Source: a virus. From it: DNA of 49,493 nucleotides. Of the stretch, positions 34,608-38,927 are shown in pieces. Below the pieces are notes generated by a model, which searched no databases, was not told where the DNA came from, and saw only the letters and a list, made by a program, of their open reading frames with translations. Numbering within the stretch: position 1 is the stretch's first letter; each line of letters begins with the position of its first letter. The stretch is from IMG/VR virus record IMGVR_UViG_3300035102_000435, one strand, 5' to 3'. The position numbers were made by a program, and so were the translations under genes.

Positions 34608-34925
34608 ATGAAAGGATTTCCTAAAAAATTAAAGACGAAAAAAGATTATGAAAATATCGTCGATGATTTCGGCTACACTCAAAAAGTAAAAGAAGCTTAT
34701 CAGGCATTGTTAGAAACTGATCAGCATTATGTATTTGATAAAGAACTGGCAACTGAGGATGAAAGGACTGGCCCGCTCCCTGATTATAAAGTAATGAAAG
34801 AAGATGAACAGGAAACCGAGACAGTCAGAATTGTTCAGTACAAATTAGTAGATAACCCTGACTCAAAGCTAAAAGAGTTAGGTTTTACAGAATTCGAAGT
34901 TCAAGAGGTGATTGACTTATGCTAA
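34608..34925 (+). CDS. Hypothetical protein (tail fibre region)
   Basis: 105-aa acidic ORF. Confidence 0.35.
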   Translation: MKGFPKKLKTKKDYENIVDDFGYTQKVKEAYQALLETDQHYVFDKELATEDERTGPLPDYKVMKEDEQETETVRIVQYKLVDNPDSKLKELGFTEFEVQEVIDLC

Positions 34926-35956
34926 GTGTAGTAGGAGTAGATAGTCCTGCTTTTTATAATGCAGAGGGAAATATAGAAAAGACAGCAGGAGTCCAGGGAG
35001 TAGACATCCCGGCCTTGGCATTAAGAATTAATAGGCAAAACTTAAAAGTTGAATCAGCATCAGCACTAACTGCCGCAGATAATGATGGCAGTTTTTCTAG
35101 TTTTGCGATGGGTACTGATTATTATATCTATGCCTGTCAACCAGCAAGTGGTATTGAGCCAGATTTTGTGCTTTCAGCTAACTCTACTTATCCAGATGCA
35201 ATACCTTCCGGAGTTACACCCAGCGTTGATAATACCAGGAAGATTGGTGGCTTCCATTATGGACGAGTAAGGAACAGTTCAACAGCTTCTGATGTATCAG
35301 AAAGTATTGTACCTAACTCAGTCTGGGACCTTGTTAATCGTCCAAAGTGCTCCCCTGAGGGGATGGCTAAGGTCGGCAACCTTTGGGTTGATATTTATCT
35401 AGCATCTGATGATGGTAACGGTGGTGTTGAATCAAAATATAATGCAACACCTATTACCGGTACTGAGGGCTTAAGCTGGTACAGTTTTGCAGAGAGGTTT
35501 GTGAAGGTAGATAAGCGGATGGCATCAATGTCAGAGTGGACAGCATTAGCTCAGGGCAGCCCTCAGGGTAATGATGGCGACAATGTCAATGCCTGGTCTG
35601 CTACAAGTAACAGTGGTAGAACATCTACTGGTTCTGTAACTAATGCTATCAGTAATTATAATATTGTCGATTGTGCCGGTAATGTTTGGGAATGGTTAGA
35701 TGAGGTTTCAATTAGACAGGATTCTACAACCTGGCAATGGTATGATCCAGCAACTGACTTTAATGAAACAATGGAGTCTGGATGGGACCAGCTTGGTGAT
35801 ATGTACTTACCTAATGCAGATGGTCTTTCAGCTTTCCGCGCCGGTGGCCATTGGGATGATGGTGTTCGCTGTGGTGCTCGCGCGTTGAGCCTGATCGACA
35901 AGCCTTGGTACGTGTACTCGACTTTCGGGTCTCGTGGTGTCTGTGATCCTCTGTAA
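34919..35956 (+). CDS. DGR target: tail fibre/receptor-binding protein with C-terminal C-type-lectin/FGE-like variable domain
   Basis: 345 aa; GNLWVDIY and GNVWEWLDE motifs typical of the FGE/CLec fold; the last ~38 codons form the variable repeat. Confidence 0.8.
   Translation: MLSVVGVDSPAFYNAEGNIEKTAGVQGVDIPALALRINRQNLKVESASALTAADNDGSFSSFAMGTDYYIYACQPASGIEPDFVLSANSTYPDAIPSGVTPSVDNTRKIGGFHYGRVRNSSTASDVSESIVPNSVWDLVNRPKCSPEGMAKVGNLWVDIYLASDDGNGGVESKYNATPITGTEGLSWYSFAERFVKVDKRMASMSEWTALAQGSPQGNDGDNVNAWSATSNSGRTSTGSVTNAISNYNIVDCAGNVWEWLDEVSIRQDSTTWQWYDPATDFNETMESGWDQLGDMYLPNADGLSAFRAGGHWDDGVRCGARALSLIDKPWYVYSTFGSRGVCDPL
35833..35945 (+). repeat. DGR variable repeat (VR)
   Basis: 113 bp aligned without gaps to 36359..36471; the 11 differences all fall at positions where the template has adenine. 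Confidence 0.85.
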
Positions 35957-36039: not shown

Positions 36040-36336
36040 ATGGTTTGGTTTTTCCCGATCGTGGATAACTTTCCGAAGTATGAAAAATTTGTACTTTGCA
36101 CTCAAATAAAGAACTCTATATTAGATATTTCAAAAATCATTATTGAAGCAAATAAAACCAGAGGTAGTAAAGTGAGGTTTCTGCATCGGGTAGATGTCCG
36201 GCTTGAGCAATTAAGAATGCTAATCAGGTTTGCTCATGAAAGGCATTACTTAAACCATTCTAAATATGAAAATGTATCTAAAAAAGTTGATGAAATAGGA
36301 CGCATGCTTGGGGGTTGGATCAAGTCATGCGATTAA
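36040..36336 (+). CDS. avd: Accessory variability determinant (Avd-like four-helix-bundle protein)
   Basis: 98-aa ORF between VR and TR; the C-terminus (VDEIGRMLGGWIKS) resembles the Bordetella phage Avd C-terminus (EVGRILGSWIAR), from memory. Confidence 0.7.
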   Translation: MVWFFPIVDNFPKYEKFVLCTQIKNSILDISKIIIEANKTRGSKVRFLHRVDVRLEQLRMLIRFAHERHYLNHSKYENVSKKVDEIGRMLGGWIKSCD

Positions 36337-36358: not shown

Positions 36359-36471
36359 TTTCCACGCCGGTGGCAATTGGAATGATGGTGTTCACTGTGG
36401 TGCTCGCGCGTTGAACCTGAACAACAAGCCTTGGAACGTGAACTCGAATATCGGGTCTCGTGGTGTCTGTG
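36359..36471 (+). repeat. DGR template repeat (TR)
   Basis: Non-coding copy of the VR; 22 adenines, many in AAC/AAT triplets in the VR-aligned frame, 11 of which differ in the VR. Confidence 0.85.
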
Positions 36472-36495
36472 CTCTTCATGCAAAAATCTTTCAGA

Positions 36496-36519
36496 CAGTA
36501 GTGGTTACGGCCACTACTG
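36496..36519 (+). other. Hairpin in the TR-RT spacer
   Basis: Perfect 9-bp inverted repeat CAGTAGTGG / CCACTACTG around a 6-nt loop, 25 nt downstream of the TR. Confidence 0.4.
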
Positions 36520-36888
36520 CAGTGTTTCTAGAAATGAGGAACAGGCTTTTAATCCCTGCTGAGATACTTTTTTAAAGTCAATCCAGCAAAAAATTTAGAT
36601 TGCTAGCCAGGCAGCAAGTATTGAAAAATAGAAAGTTGTCACAGTCAGCGACTGCCCGTTCTCATTTGAGCGGGCTTTTAATTTCCACCCATAAATAGAG
36701 AAAGTGGTGATAATATTCCAAAAAAATTTAAGAATCTATATCCAAAAATATACGATTTTGAGAACCTATACATTTCTTATGAAAATGCTAGAAAATCTAA
36801 ACGATATACTAACCAGGTCCTTAAATTTACTAATCAGTTAGAAAGCAATTTAATTAACATTCAAAATCAGCTCATCTGGAAAGAATAT

Positions 36889-37827
36889 TTGCCTGGCGAA
36901 TATCATCAGTTCTATGTCTATGAACCTAAGCAGCGGTTAGTTATGGCACTTCCTTTTGAGGATAGAGTGGTCCAGTGGGCTGTATATAGAAATTTAAATC
37001 CTATATTTGATAAAACTTTTTATGAACATAGCTGCGCCTGCCGGATTGGTAAAGGTACTCATTATGCAGCGGACCAGCTGCAGCACTGGATGAGAAAACT
37101 AGATAGAAGCCCAGGGGAAACTTATTATCTCAAAGCTGATGTTGCAAAATATTTTTACAGGATAGATCACAGAACTCTTTTCGAAATCATCAAAAGAAAG
37201 ATTAGCTGCAGAGATACTTTAGAGCTGATCTGGAAGATCATTAAAAAAGATGATGGTGAATTCGGAATACATCTCGGTGATCATTACTTTGAAAGAGATA
37301 AAATCAAAGGAATTGGAATCCCGATTGGTAACTTAACCAGTCAATTATTTGCTAATGTTTATCTCGACTTCATGGATAAATTTATAAAACATAATTTACG
37401 GGCTAAACACTACGTCAGATATATGGACGATTTTGTTATCCTGGGAAAATCAAAGAAAGAACTACATACAATCAGACAGGAGATAGAAATATTTCTTGCT
37501 GATTATTTAAAACTTGAACTTAACAACAAAACTACTGTTGATAATATCTGGAATGGAATAGATTTCTGCGGATATGTCACTTATCCACCATATAGAAAAT
37601 TGAGAAAAAGTACAAAAAGGAAACTCAAAAGACGGCTTAAATATCTTCAGAAAAAGTATTATAAAGAGGAGGTGGAGATCAATGAAATAAATGCCAGCGT
37701 TCAAAGTTATCTTGGAATATTAAAACATTGTGACAGCCATAATCTGACAATGTCGGTTATTGGCCAGTTAGAGGATGAAATACTTAATCAACTAGATTTA
37801 GAGGACGTTCGAGAACAAAGAAGTTGA
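36889..37827 (+). CDS. DGR reverse transcriptase (N-terminus likely extends upstream)
   Basis: YMDD catalytic motif (YVRYMDDFVILG) and the DGR-type IGNLTSQLFANVY motif; coordinates are from the first canonical start, but conserved N-terminal sequence continues in frame back to about 36700. Confidence 0.9.
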   Translation: MPGEYHQFYVYEPKQRLVMALPFEDRVVQWAVYRNLNPIFDKTFYEHSCACRIGKGTHYAADQLQHWMRKLDRSPGETYYLKADVAKYFYRIDHRTLFEIIKRKISCRDTLELIWKIIKKDDGEFGIHLGDHYFERDKIKGIGIPIGNLTSQLFANVYLDFMDKFIKHNLRAKHYVRYMDDFVILGKSKKELHTIRQEIEIFLADYLKLELNNKTTVDNIWNGIDFCGYVTYPPYRKLRKSTKRKLKRRLKYLQKKYYKEEVEINEINASVQSYLGILKHCDSHNLTMSVIGQLEDEILNQLDLEDVREQRS

Positions 37828-37890: not shown

Positions 37891-38352
37891 GTGAATGCAA
37901 AATGGAGACCATTTTTAGACGAAATAATTTATTACTGGAACAAATTTTTTGAGCATACAGTTATAAAAAGTTTTCTTGCGGTGGGGGGCACATTGCTGAC
38001 TATGATGTTTGGAGATATGAATGCAGCTATGCAGGGCTTTTTGATTTTGTTGGCAGCAGATTATATTACAGGAATTATAAAAGCAAGCAAAAAAGGTCAG
38101 CTATCAAGCTGGATGTCCCGTAAGGGGTGGGGGAAAATAGCGACTTATGCAATTGTAATATCGCTTGGCCACCTGGTAACTCAAATAGGGATGAAAGGAA
38201 TGAGAGATTTTGTTCTTCTCTGGGCCGGAGCAACTGAAGCTATATCTATTTTAGAAAACTGTGACGAGCTCGGTGTCGCTATTCCCGAGTTTATGCGAGA
38301 AAAACTTTTACGAACAAAAGAAAATAAATTTGGAGAGGAGATTAACCGATGA
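37891..38352 (+). CDS. Putative holin
   Basis: 153-aa membrane protein directly upstream of the amidase gene, with stop-start overlap. Confidence 0.55.
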   Translation: MNAKWRPFLDEIIYYWNKFFEHTVIKSFLAVGGTLLTMMFGDMNAAMQGFLILLAADYITGIIKASKKGQLSSWMSRKGWGKIATYAIVISLGHLVTQIGMKGMRDFVLLWAGATEAISILENCDELGVAIPEFMREKLLRTKENKFGEEINR

Positions 38353-38927
38353 AAATAACTGATGATGCAGGACATGGAGGTTCTGACCCTGGAGCTGTCG
38401 ACCCAAAAGAAGTTGAAAAAGAAGATGGTATTTATGAAGATGAAATTTACTCTGAAGAGAGCGATATAAATTTGAAAGCAGCTAAGATTTTTAAAGAAAT
38501 AGCTGAATTTAAAGGTCATGAAATTATTATGACCAGAAAAGAAGATAAGTATATCCCTTTGTATCAAAGAAGTGATTTAGCAAATAAAGAAAAAACAGAT
38601 ATATTTGTTTCTTTTCATTGCAATTCTGTGGGCTTTCCTACTGCTAAAGGAATAGAAACTCTATATTATCCAACTTCTAAAAACGGGAAAAAACTTGCTG
38701 AATGTATTCAAGATAATTTAATGAAAGTTGCGGATACACCAGATAGAGGAATAAAGTCCAGAGATAATTTACACGTCTTAGAAGAAACAGATATGCCGGC
38801 TGTTTTAATAGAACTTGGCTTTATTTCTAACCCTGCAGAGGAAAAACTCTTAAATGAAAAAGAATATTTATATCTTCTTTGTGAAGCAGTGTTAAATGGA
38901 GTTGATGATTATGCCAGAAACAGTTAA
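38349..38927 (+). CDS. N-acetylmuramoyl-L-alanine amidase (endolysin)
   Basis: 192 aa; motifs DAGHGG..DPGA, FVSFHCNS, AVLIELGFISN characteristic of Amidase_3-type cell-wall amidases. Confidence 0.8.
   Translation: MKITDDAGHGGSDPGAVDPKEVEKEDGIYEDEIYSEESDINLKAAKIFKEIAEFKGHEIIMTRKEDKYIPLYQRSDLANKEKTDIFVSFHCNSVGFPTAKGIETLYYPTSKNGKKLAECIQDNLMKVADTPDRGIKSRDNLHVLEETDMPAVLIELGFISNPAEEKLLNEKEYLYLLCEAVLNGVDDYARNS

What the first reader, a model, noticed from the sequence alone, without database searches (positions are those of the whole stretch)
36682..36891. DGR RT N-terminus has no canonical start codon
The RT frame is open from the stop at 36679..36681 and encodes N-terminal sequence that aligns with Bordetella phage Brt from memory (NLYPKIYDFENLYISYENARKSKR...YHQFYVYEPKQR), yet it has no in-frame ATG, GTG or TTG before the TTG at 36889. 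Starting at 36889 would remove roughly 55 to 65 conserved residues. Possible explanations are non-canonical initiation (an in-frame ATT at 36715 lies 4 nt after GGTGA), a frameshift or readthrough, or an assembly error.
Basis: partly seen in the sequence, partly recalled or inferred. Interest (0 to 1): 0.7.

Follow-up and report, generated by a model that had tools for sequence, protein, structure and literature searches.

The report
DGR reverse transcriptase starts at ATT
The reverse transcriptase gene of this phage's hypermutation cassette really has no ATG/GTG/TTG start; comparison with relatives indicates it begins at a weak ATT codon behind a strong ribosome-binding site, which probably keeps enzyme levels low and makes gene finders truncate it.

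Summary
The RT frame is open from 36682 and has no ATG, GTG or TTG before 36889. The 58 codons from ATT 36715 to 36888 align with the N-terminus of Bordetella phage Brt.

It is not an assembly error. The same bases occur in at least five other assemblies, and two protein clusters seen on dozens of contigs, including a Halanaerobium isolate, are all called truncated.

It is not a dead gene. The N-terminal codons are under strong purifying selection. Near-identical phages with the same template repeat carry different variable repeats, changed only at template adenines.

Across 21 distinct start regions in the RT clade (at least 64% identity), the codon before Pro-Lys-Lys is ATT (15), ATC (5) or TTG (1). 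It lies 7 to 9 nt after the GG of an extended Shine-Dalgarno (GGTGAT type). Thirteen of the 21 have no in-frame canonical start at all. In seven others the in-frame ATG/GTG/TTG lies inside or against the Shine-Dalgarno. Frame-breaking indels and stops occur immediately upstream.

Best explanation: initiation at AUU 36715, giving a 370-aa RT at attenuated level. Frameshifting from the out-of-frame GTG is not general and is unlikely. This is a new example of a known phenomenon, with consequences for DGR annotation. Interest is moderate.

The parts
36715..37827 (+). Proposed full DGR reverse transcriptase CDS (370 aa plus stop), initiating at ATT 36715-36717
   Evidence: Open frame. RVT_1 domain. 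Aligns with Brt from its residue 3. ATT/ATC/TTG is conserved at this codon in 21 distinct relatives.
36699..36711 (+). Extended Shine-Dalgarno AGAAAG-T-GGTGAT. The core GGTGAT is 36706-36711, with 7 nt between its GG and the ATT
   Evidence: Run of 6 matches to the complement of the 16S 3' end, at aligned spacing 7. The window's own genes peak at spacing 7-9. The element is conserved in relatives.
36704..36709 (+). Two out-of-frame GTG codons embedded in the Shine-Dalgarno (decoys; they open a 45-aa ORF in the +1 frame)
   Evidence: They lie inside the SD, at aligned spacing -5 and -2. In relatives the equivalent ATG/GTG is in frame only when it is 9 nt from the ATT/ATC, and out of frame at 8 or 10 nt.
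36720..36726 (+). A7 run (codons Lys-Lys of the RT). In the GTG frame it reads A_AAA_AAT, a potential -1 slip site
   Evidence: Not conserved in other relatives that lack a canonical start: L015 CCGAAGAAA, L041 CCTAAGACA, L029 CCACAAAAAG.
36889..36891 (+). First in-frame canonical start (TTG), used by gene finders to call a 312-aa truncated RT
   Evidence: P0001. Poor SD, GAAAG at spacing 1. Absent in L005, L006 and L012, and at other positions in L007-L009.
36679..36681 (+). In-frame TAA that closes the RT frame upstream
   Evidence: A second in-frame stop lies 4 codons further up.
36654..36684 (+). Terminator-like hairpin (GCCCGTTC / GAGCGGGC) followed by TTTTAATTT, between the DGR non-coding RNA and the RT ribosome-binding site
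   Evidence: Retained in L005-L010, L015 and L027 with C-G to U.G changes.
36472..36648 (+). Spacer RNA of the DGR, a diverged RT-14 RNA motif (Rfam RF02921)
   Evidence: 33.9 bits, below the gathering score of 48.1. Relatives score 50-80 bits at the same position.
36359..36477 (+). Template repeat (TR)
35833..35951 (+). Variable repeat (VR) at the 3' end of the target gene; 11 of 11 differences from the TR are at TR adenines
36040..36336 (+). Avd accessory protein gene
   Evidence: bAvd PF22296 and NF033474.
34919..35956 (+). Mtd-like target (receptor-binding) protein gene
   Evidence: mtd_2nd PF21916.

Best explanation
The RT of this Halanaerobium-type phage DGR is translated from the non-canonical initiation codon AUU at 36715. 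An extended Shine-Dalgarno (AGAAAG-U-GGUGAU) sits 7 nt upstream by aligned spacing and directs initiation there. The product is a full-length 370-aa enzyme beginning (f)Met-Pro-Lys-Lys-Phe-Lys-Asn-Leu-Tyr.

The GTG codons at 36704-36709 are part of the ribosome-binding site and are not start codons.

AUU/AUC starts work at a fraction of AUG efficiency, so the likely consequence is a low RT level. A terminator-like hairpin just upstream may add to this.

Shown here: there is no canonical start, the feature is reproducible and conserved, the N-terminus is under coding selection, and the DGR has been active.

Inferred: AUU is the codon actually used, and it attenuates expression.
For: 1. The feature is reproducible. 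The start region is identical in independent assemblies L001, L002, L003, L018 and L019. Cluster P0001 has 21 members, with the listed members seen on more than 40 contigs. Cluster P0004 has 13 members. All are called truncated, including RefSeq WP_208107503.1 from an isolate.

2. The gene is functional.
- For the 57 codons between ATT and TTG 36889, dN/dS is 0.087 against L005.
- Against more distant relatives, pS is 0.67-1.0 and pN is 0.17-0.28, with no stops or indels.
- Window, L001, L002 and L003 share an identical TR and RT start, yet their VRs differ at 12-16 sites, all at TR adenines.
- The same pattern holds in L007/L014/L040, L041-43, L029/30 and L010/16.

3. The start is bracketed.
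- In 21 distinct sequences the codon 6 before Asn-Leu/Ile-Tyr is ATT (15), ATC (5) or TTG (1, L035).
- ATA never occurs there, although ATA makes up 43% of Ile codons in these genes.
- Codons -7 to -9 are variable and include stops. Indels that break the frame fall between the SD and the ATY codon: +2 nt in L006 and in the L010 group.
- 13 of the 21 have no in-frame ATG/GTG/TTG between the upstream stop and the ATY codon.

4. The nearby ATG/GTG lies inside the SD (GGAGATGAT, GGAGTGAT, GTGGTGAT, AAGGTGAT). It is 8, 9 or 10 nt from the ATY codon and in frame only at 9. This indicates a spacing constraint, not a frame constraint.

5. The aligned SD spacing for ATT 36715 is 7 nt, and the window's genes peak at 7-9 nt. 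The GTGs and TTG 36889 have impossible or poor spacing.

6. The ATT aligns with Met1 of Brt. Of 57 distinct more distant RTs (45-57% identity), 56 have ATG, TTG or GTG within a few codons of the aligned N-terminus, mostly one codon downstream of the ATT position.

7. There are precedents. S. aureus has AUU/AUA starts with extended SDs at about 10% of AUG efficiency (PMC13009471). E. faecalis ebpA starts at ATT (PMC4447247).
Against: - There is no direct evidence such as N-terminal peptide data, ribosome profiling or mutagenesis.
- In 7 of 21 relatives an in-frame ATG/GTG/TTG exists 2-3 codons upstream. The ancestral start may therefore have been canonical, with AUU use secondary in some lineages.
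- In the window itself an A_AAA_AAT heptamer in the GTG frame could in principle give a -1 shift into the RT frame.
- The 3' end of the host 16S rRNA was not available, so the SD pairing rests on the general bacterial/Firmicute consensus.
Confidence: 0.85

Rival explanations
1. Programmed -1 ribosomal frameshift, or transcriptional slippage on the A7 run. Translation would start at GTG 36704 or 36707 and shift into the RT frame on A_AAA_AAT (36720-36727).
For: The GTG frame is +1 relative to the RT, and the heptamer A AAA AAT is correctly phased in it. The A7 run is kept in the window-type and L007-type loci. A weak AU-rich hairpin is predicted a few nt downstream.
Against: - The GTGs lie inside the SD with no usable SD of their own, at aligned spacing -5 and -2.
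- In L006 the GTG frame hits TAA after three codons (GTG GTG AGA TAA).
- L015, L041/L044, L029 and L012 also lack a canonical start but have no correctly phased slippery run.
- The distance from the SD-embedded ATG/GTG to the ATY codon varies between 8, 9 and 10 nt. A frameshift mechanism would not tolerate this.
Confidence: 0.04
2. Translation starts at the first canonical codon downstream (TTG 36889, or ATG 36943), giving an N-terminally truncated RT of 312 or 294 aa, as gene finders annotate.
For: These are the only ATG/GTG/TTG codons available in frame. Databases hold such calls.
Against: - The 57 codons upstream are under strong purifying selection even within lineages that lack a canonical start. 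They align with Brt residues 3-60.
- The TTG is not conserved in position or presence.
- SD support is poor: GAAAG at spacing 1 for the TTG, and none for ATG 36943.
- The DGRs are demonstrably active.
Confidence: 0.04
3. Sequencing or assembly error, or a recently inactivated pseudogene. Under this view a 1-nt deletion or an AT duplication after an ancestral GTG ATA ATA/ATT start broke the frame.
For: Relatives such as P0003 (MIIIPKK, GTG ATT ATA ATT CCT) differ from the window (GTG ATA AT ATT CCA) by what looks like a single-base length change.
Against: - The sequence is identical in independent assemblies from different projects. The same configuration is present at 79-87% protein identity, including an isolate genome.
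- Purifying selection acts on the N-terminus within this lineage.
- VR diversification is ongoing among phages that share this exact start region.
Confidence: 0.02

Closest known systems
Genes with AUU/AUA/AUC initiation codons that attenuate expression: E. coli infC and pcnB, Enterococcus faecalis ebpA (ATT), Staphylococcus aureus cvfC1 (AUU), ccpN and infC (AUA)
   Same: - There is no usable canonical start.
- A conserved AUY codon sits at optimal spacing behind a strong or extended Shine-Dalgarno.
- Gene finders pick a downstream ATG/TTG instead, exactly as reported for ebpA (PMC4447247).
- The S. aureus cases all carry extended SDs and give about 10% of AUG efficiency (PMC13009471).
   Different: Here the gene is the reverse transcriptase of a phage diversity-generating retroelement. 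The trait is shared by a whole RT clade, with ATT and ATC interchanging. Use of the codon and its attenuating effect are inferred, not measured.
Bordetella phage BPP-1 DGR (Mtd - Avd - TR - Brt)
   Same: The gene order is the same: target, avd, TR, spacer RNA, RT. The RT aligns with Brt over its full length (E = 2.5e-53). The target has an Mtd-type domain, and TR-to-VR differences are adenine-specific.
   Different: In the solved-structure sequence, Brt Met1 aligns with the ATT of this RT. Here the spacer RNA is an RT-14-type motif, followed by a terminator-like hairpin.
Programmed -1 frameshift sites of the dnaX / IS-element type (A AAA AAG)
   Same: In the window an A-rich heptamer (A AAA AAT) is phased in an upstream out-of-frame GTG ORF that overlaps the RT start.
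   Different: The GTG ORF has no independent ribosome-binding site. Neither the heptamer nor the ORF is conserved among relatives that equally lack a start.

Membership tests
Diversity-generating retroelement (DGR) | Reverse transcriptase of the DGR/Brt type | tested here: met
   RVT_1 E = 7e-21. Best solved-structure match is Brt 8ub7_A, E = 2.5e-53, over residues 3-315.
Diversity-generating retroelement (DGR) | TR/VR repeat pair whose differences fall at TR adenines | tested here: met
   119-nt repeat at 36359-36477 and 35833-35951. 11 of 11 mismatches are at TR adenines. VRs of sister phages differ only at TR adenines.
Diversity-generating retroelement (DGR) | Accessory Avd protein and a target protein with the VR at its C-terminus | tested here: met
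   bAvd PF22296 and NF033474 at 36040-36336. Mtd second domain in 34919-35956, with the VR at its 3' end.
Non-canonical (AUU/AUC) initiation codon genes | No in-frame ATG/GTG/TTG able to produce the conserved N-terminus | tested here: met
   True of the window and of 13 of 21 distinct relatives.
Non-canonical (AUU/AUC) initiation codon genes | Conserved near-cognate codon at functional spacing from a Shine-Dalgarno, with coding constraint beginning there | tested here: met
   ATT 15, ATC 5, TTG 1 at codon -6. The SD GG lies 7-9 nt upstream. Stops and frame-breaking indels occur at -7 to -9.
Non-canonical (AUU/AUC) initiation codon genes | Direct demonstration of initiation at that codon (N-terminal peptide, initiation profiling, mutagenesis) | not testable with these tools
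   No expression data are available.
Non-canonical (AUU/AUC) initiation codon genes | Reduced expression relative to an AUG version | not testable with these tools
   Inferred from precedents (PMC13009471, PMC4447247).
Programmed -1 ribosomal frameshift | Upstream 0-frame ORF with its own functional initiation site | tested here: not met
   GTG 36704 and 36707 lie inside the SD, at aligned spacing -5 and -2.
Programmed -1 ribosomal frameshift | Correctly phased slippery heptamer conserved among relatives | tested here: not met
   Present in the window (A AAA AAT). Absent in L015, L041, L044 and L012. In L006 the 0-frame ends before the run.

The most novel reading that the evidence does not exclude
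The AUU/AUC start, combined with the terminator-like hairpin immediately upstream, may act as a conserved throttle on RT synthesis. RT production, and so the rate of DGR hypermutation, would then depend on initiation fidelity (IF3 level, growth state) and on terminator read-through. Under this reading, receptor-binding-protein diversification would be conditional rather than constitutive. The frequent TTG starts in more distant DGR RTs (about 16 of 57 loci) would be a milder form of the same selection for low RT dosage.
Probability: 0.2. Interest if true: 0.6.

Novelty: new member of a known kind. Interest (0 to 1): 0.4.

Why it matters
1. Annotation. Gene finders that allow only ATG/GTG/TTG systematically truncate these RTs to 294-330 aa (for example RefSeq WP_208107503.1). 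In other cases they over-extend them through the upstream non-coding RNA (P0006, P0011). DGR surveys that filter on RT length or completeness, or that use ATG-only ORF finding (PMC6642488), may miss these elements or score them as defective.

2. Biology. A conserved weak start codon on the RT points to selection for low RT dosage in an active mutagenic retroelement. That is directly testable by swapping ATT for ATG and measuring homing frequency.

3. Translation. It adds a clade-wide, evolutionarily maintained AUU/AUC start paired with an extended SD in a little-studied anaerobic lineage (Halanaerobiales and their phages).

Tried and rejected
- BLASTN of the cassette against GenBank phages found only a short 70% match to Bacillus phage BalMu-1 RT. 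It gave no help on the start.
- The metagenome scan added few new lineages.
- I first suspected a frameshift within the first four codons, or slippage on the A7 run, because relatives begin MIIPKK or MIIIPKK. The DNA of those relatives shows that their ATG/GTG is part of the SD. L006, L015, L041 and L012 cannot use a frameshift route.
- Readthrough of TAA 36679 is rejected. A second in-frame stop lies 4 codons upstream and no ORF feeds into it.
- The statistic based on ATA avoidance at the start codon (0 of 19, against 43% ATA usage) is only suggestive. Other Ile columns are also fixed, for example column +5, which is all ATA.
- Covariation in the terminator-like hairpin shows only one-sided C-G to U.G changes. 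Alignment A3 puts L007-L009 one column out of register, so I read the stems directly instead of running the pair counter.
- Literature searches for non-AUG starts in DGR RTs, and for Halanaerobium DGRs, found nothing relevant.

Full report
**Observation**

The RT reading frame is closed by TAA at 36679-36681 and open from 36682 to the stop at 37825-37827. The first in-frame ATG/GTG/TTG is TTG 36889, which the ORF lister and public gene calls use to give a 312-aa product. The upstream translation reads ...ESGDN-I-PKKFKNLYPKIYDFENLYISYENARKSKRY... It aligns with the solved Bordetella phage Brt sequence (8ub7_A, E = 2.5e-53) from Brt residue 3 onward. Brt Met1 therefore falls on the ATT at 36715. 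ATT 36715 lies 4 nt after GGTGA (36706-36710). All elements of the finding are correct.

**Context**

The locus is a complete BPP-1-like diversity-generating retroelement. Its parts are:
- An Mtd-domain target gene at 34919-35956.
- Avd at 36040-36336.
- A 119-nt TR at 36359-36477, matching a VR at 35833-35951 with 11 of 11 differences at TR adenines.
- A spacer that is a diverged RT-14 RNA motif. It scores 33.9 bits in the window and 50-80 bits in relatives at the same position.
- A terminator-like hairpin plus U-tract at 36654-36684.
- The RT itself.

Relatives occur in Halanaerobium saccharolyticum and Halanaerobiales genomes, so the host is very probably a Halanaerobium.

**Not an error**

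The 630 nt spanning TR, spacer and RT start differ at one base outside the start region between the window and an ENA contig. The start region is base-for-base identical in L001, L002, L003, L018 and L019, which come from different projects.

The 90%-identity protein cluster of the truncated call has 21 members, and the listed members were seen on more than 40 contigs. A second cluster at about 81% identity has 13 members. Every member is a truncated call of 288-330 aa, apart from two short fragments of 68 and 81 aa and one of 181 aa. RefSeq WP_208107503.1 from an isolate is among them, and it starts at an internal TTG.

**Not a dead gene**

The 57 codons between the ATT and TTG 36889 show dN/dS = 0.087 between the window and L005, both of which lack a canonical start. 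Against more distant relatives, synonymous sites are saturated (pS 0.67-1.0) while pN is only 0.17-0.28. There are no stops or indels.

Window, L001, L002 and L003 share an identical TR and an identical RT start region. Their VRs differ pairwise at 12-16 positions, every one at a TR adenine. The same signature of recent mutagenic homing is seen in other lineages whose only possible start is the ATT/ATC: L007/L014/L040, L041-L043 and L029/L030. It is also seen in L010/L016. The RT is therefore made and active.

**Where translation starts**

I collected 21 distinct start-region sequences from the RT clade at 64% identity or more and about 57 from more distant DGR RTs.

In the clade:
- The codon six positions before the conserved Asn-(Leu/Ile)-Tyr is ATT in 15, ATC in 5 and TTG in 1 (L035).
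- It is never ATA, although ATA is 43% of the Ile codons in these genes.
- The next codons (Pro-Lys-Lys) vary synonymously.
- The three codons upstream are variable, include in-frame stops, and carry length changes that break the frame. These are +2 nt in L006 and +2 nt in the L010/L015/L027 group relative to the window.
- 13 of the 21 have no in-frame ATG/GTG/TTG anywhere between the upstream stop and this codon.

The ATG or GTG seen nearby is always part of an extended Shine-Dalgarno. The variants are GGAGATGAT, GGAGTGAT, GTGGTGAT and AAGGTGAT, all close to the complement of the 16S 3' end, AAGGAGGTGATC. That ATG/GTG lies 8, 9 or 10 nt before the ATT/ATC, so it is in frame only when the distance happens to be 9. 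What is conserved is the spacing from the SD, not the reading frame of that ATG/GTG.

In the window the GG of GGTGAT is 7 nt from the ATT. The window's own genes have this aligned spacing peaking at 7-9 nt, and many use GAGGTGA(T)-type SDs. The GTGs at 36704 and 36707 sit inside the SD. TTG 36889 has only GAAAG at spacing 1, and ATG 36943 has nothing. The downstream TTG is absent from L005, L006 and L012 and lies elsewhere in L007-L009.

In the more distant RTs, 56 of 57 distinct loci have ATG (36), TTG (about 16) or GVG-type GTG (4) within a few codons of the aligned N-terminus. Most are at the codon one downstream of the ATT position. The one exception is L116, which again shows ATC behind an SD that contains an in-frame GTG.

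The most economical reading is that initiation occurs at AUU 36715, giving a 370-aa RT.

**Rivals**

A -1 frameshift or transcriptional slippage from the out-of-frame GTG on A_AAA_AAT is formally possible in the window. Three results count against it:
- The GTG has no ribosome-binding site of its own.
- In L006 that frame terminates after three codons.
- L015, L041/L044, L029 and L012 lack any phased slippery run while sharing the missing start.

Readthrough is excluded by two closely spaced in-frame stops with no feeding ORF. A truncated RT from TTG 36889 is contradicted by selection on the upstream codons and by non-conservation of the TTG. Error and pseudogene explanations are contradicted as set out above.

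**Comparison with what is known**

AUU starts are established for E. coli infC and pcnB (general knowledge; cited within PMC13009471). E. faecalis ebpA uses ATT, where the annotated downstream ATG was shown not to be used and ATT lowers expression (PMC4447247). S. aureus cvfC1 (AUU) and ccpN and infC (AUA) all carry extended SDs and give about 10% of AUG efficiency (PMC13009471). The present case has the same sequence anatomy.

Full-text searches found no report of a non-AUG start in a DGR RT. One DGR pipeline uses ATG-only ORF finding.

I therefore file this as a new member of a known kind. It is a clade-wide AUU/AUC start on the RT of an active DGR, probably serving to keep RT dosage low. 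What is shown is the absence of any other start, the conservation pattern and the activity of the element. Actual use of AUU, and its quantitative effect, are inferred.

**Verdict**

The feature is real, conserved and biologically sensible, but mechanistically ordinary. Its value lies mainly in DGR annotation and in a testable hypothesis about translational throttling of hypermutation. Interest 0.4.

Noticed in passing
window 36472-36648; L007 2295-2463, L010 1817-1985, L012 2318-2480 and others: The spacer between TR and RT matches the Rfam RT-14 RNA motif (RF02921). The window scores below threshold (33.9 against 48.1 bits). Fourteen relatives score 50-80 bits at the equivalent position, so the window copy is a diverged member.
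   Followed up: partly
window 36654-36684: A terminator-like hairpin (8 bp, 6 G-C) followed by TTTTAATTT lies between the RT-14 motif and the RT ribosome-binding site. It is retained in L005-L010, L015 and L027 with C-G to U.G changes. It suggests that the DGR RNA ends here and that the RT needs read-through.
   Followed up: partly
window 36685-36689 versus 36704-36710: CCACC (TCACC in most relatives), about 15 nt upstream, is complementary to the GGTG(A) core of the SD. The pairing appears in the MFE fold but not in the centroid. It could weakly sequester the SD.
   Followed up: no
window 35833-35951; L001 1950, L002 1657, L003 1657, L006 1656: Phages with 98-100% identical RT and identical (L006: near-identical) TR carry VRs that differ at 12-18 positions. 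All differences are at TR adenines except one L006 site, which tracks a substitution in L006's own TR. This is direct population-level evidence of ongoing DGR diversification.
   Followed up: yes
L014 and L016 (Halanaerobium saccharolyticum MA284_T2, NZ_SNWX01000006.1 and NZ_SNWX01000032.1): One isolate genome carries two related DGR prophage loci, with RTs 87% and 79% identical to the window's. One has the ATT-type start region and the other the TTG/ATC-type. RefSeq WP_208107503.1 (318 aa) for the first is truncated by 52 codons.
   Followed up: partly
L045-L116 (more distant DGR RT loci): About 16 of 57 distinct RT genes start with TTG and 4 with GTG, while the window's own genes are mostly ATG. 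L116 appears to be an independent ATC-start case with a GTG inside its SD. Weak start codons may be a general trait of DGR RTs.
   Followed up: no
P0006 (L011/L026) and P0011 (L029/L030): Public gene calls for these relatives are over-extended by 12-16 codons from a far-upstream start codon and read through the structured spacer RNA. The ATT behind AGGAGTGAT or GGAGATGAT is the likely true start.
   Followed up: partly
window 37891-38927: Immediately downstream of the RT lie a holin-like gene and an Amidase_3 endolysin. The annotation is carried over from the syntenic locus L027. The DGR therefore sits between the tail-fibre module and the lysis cassette.
   Followed up: no
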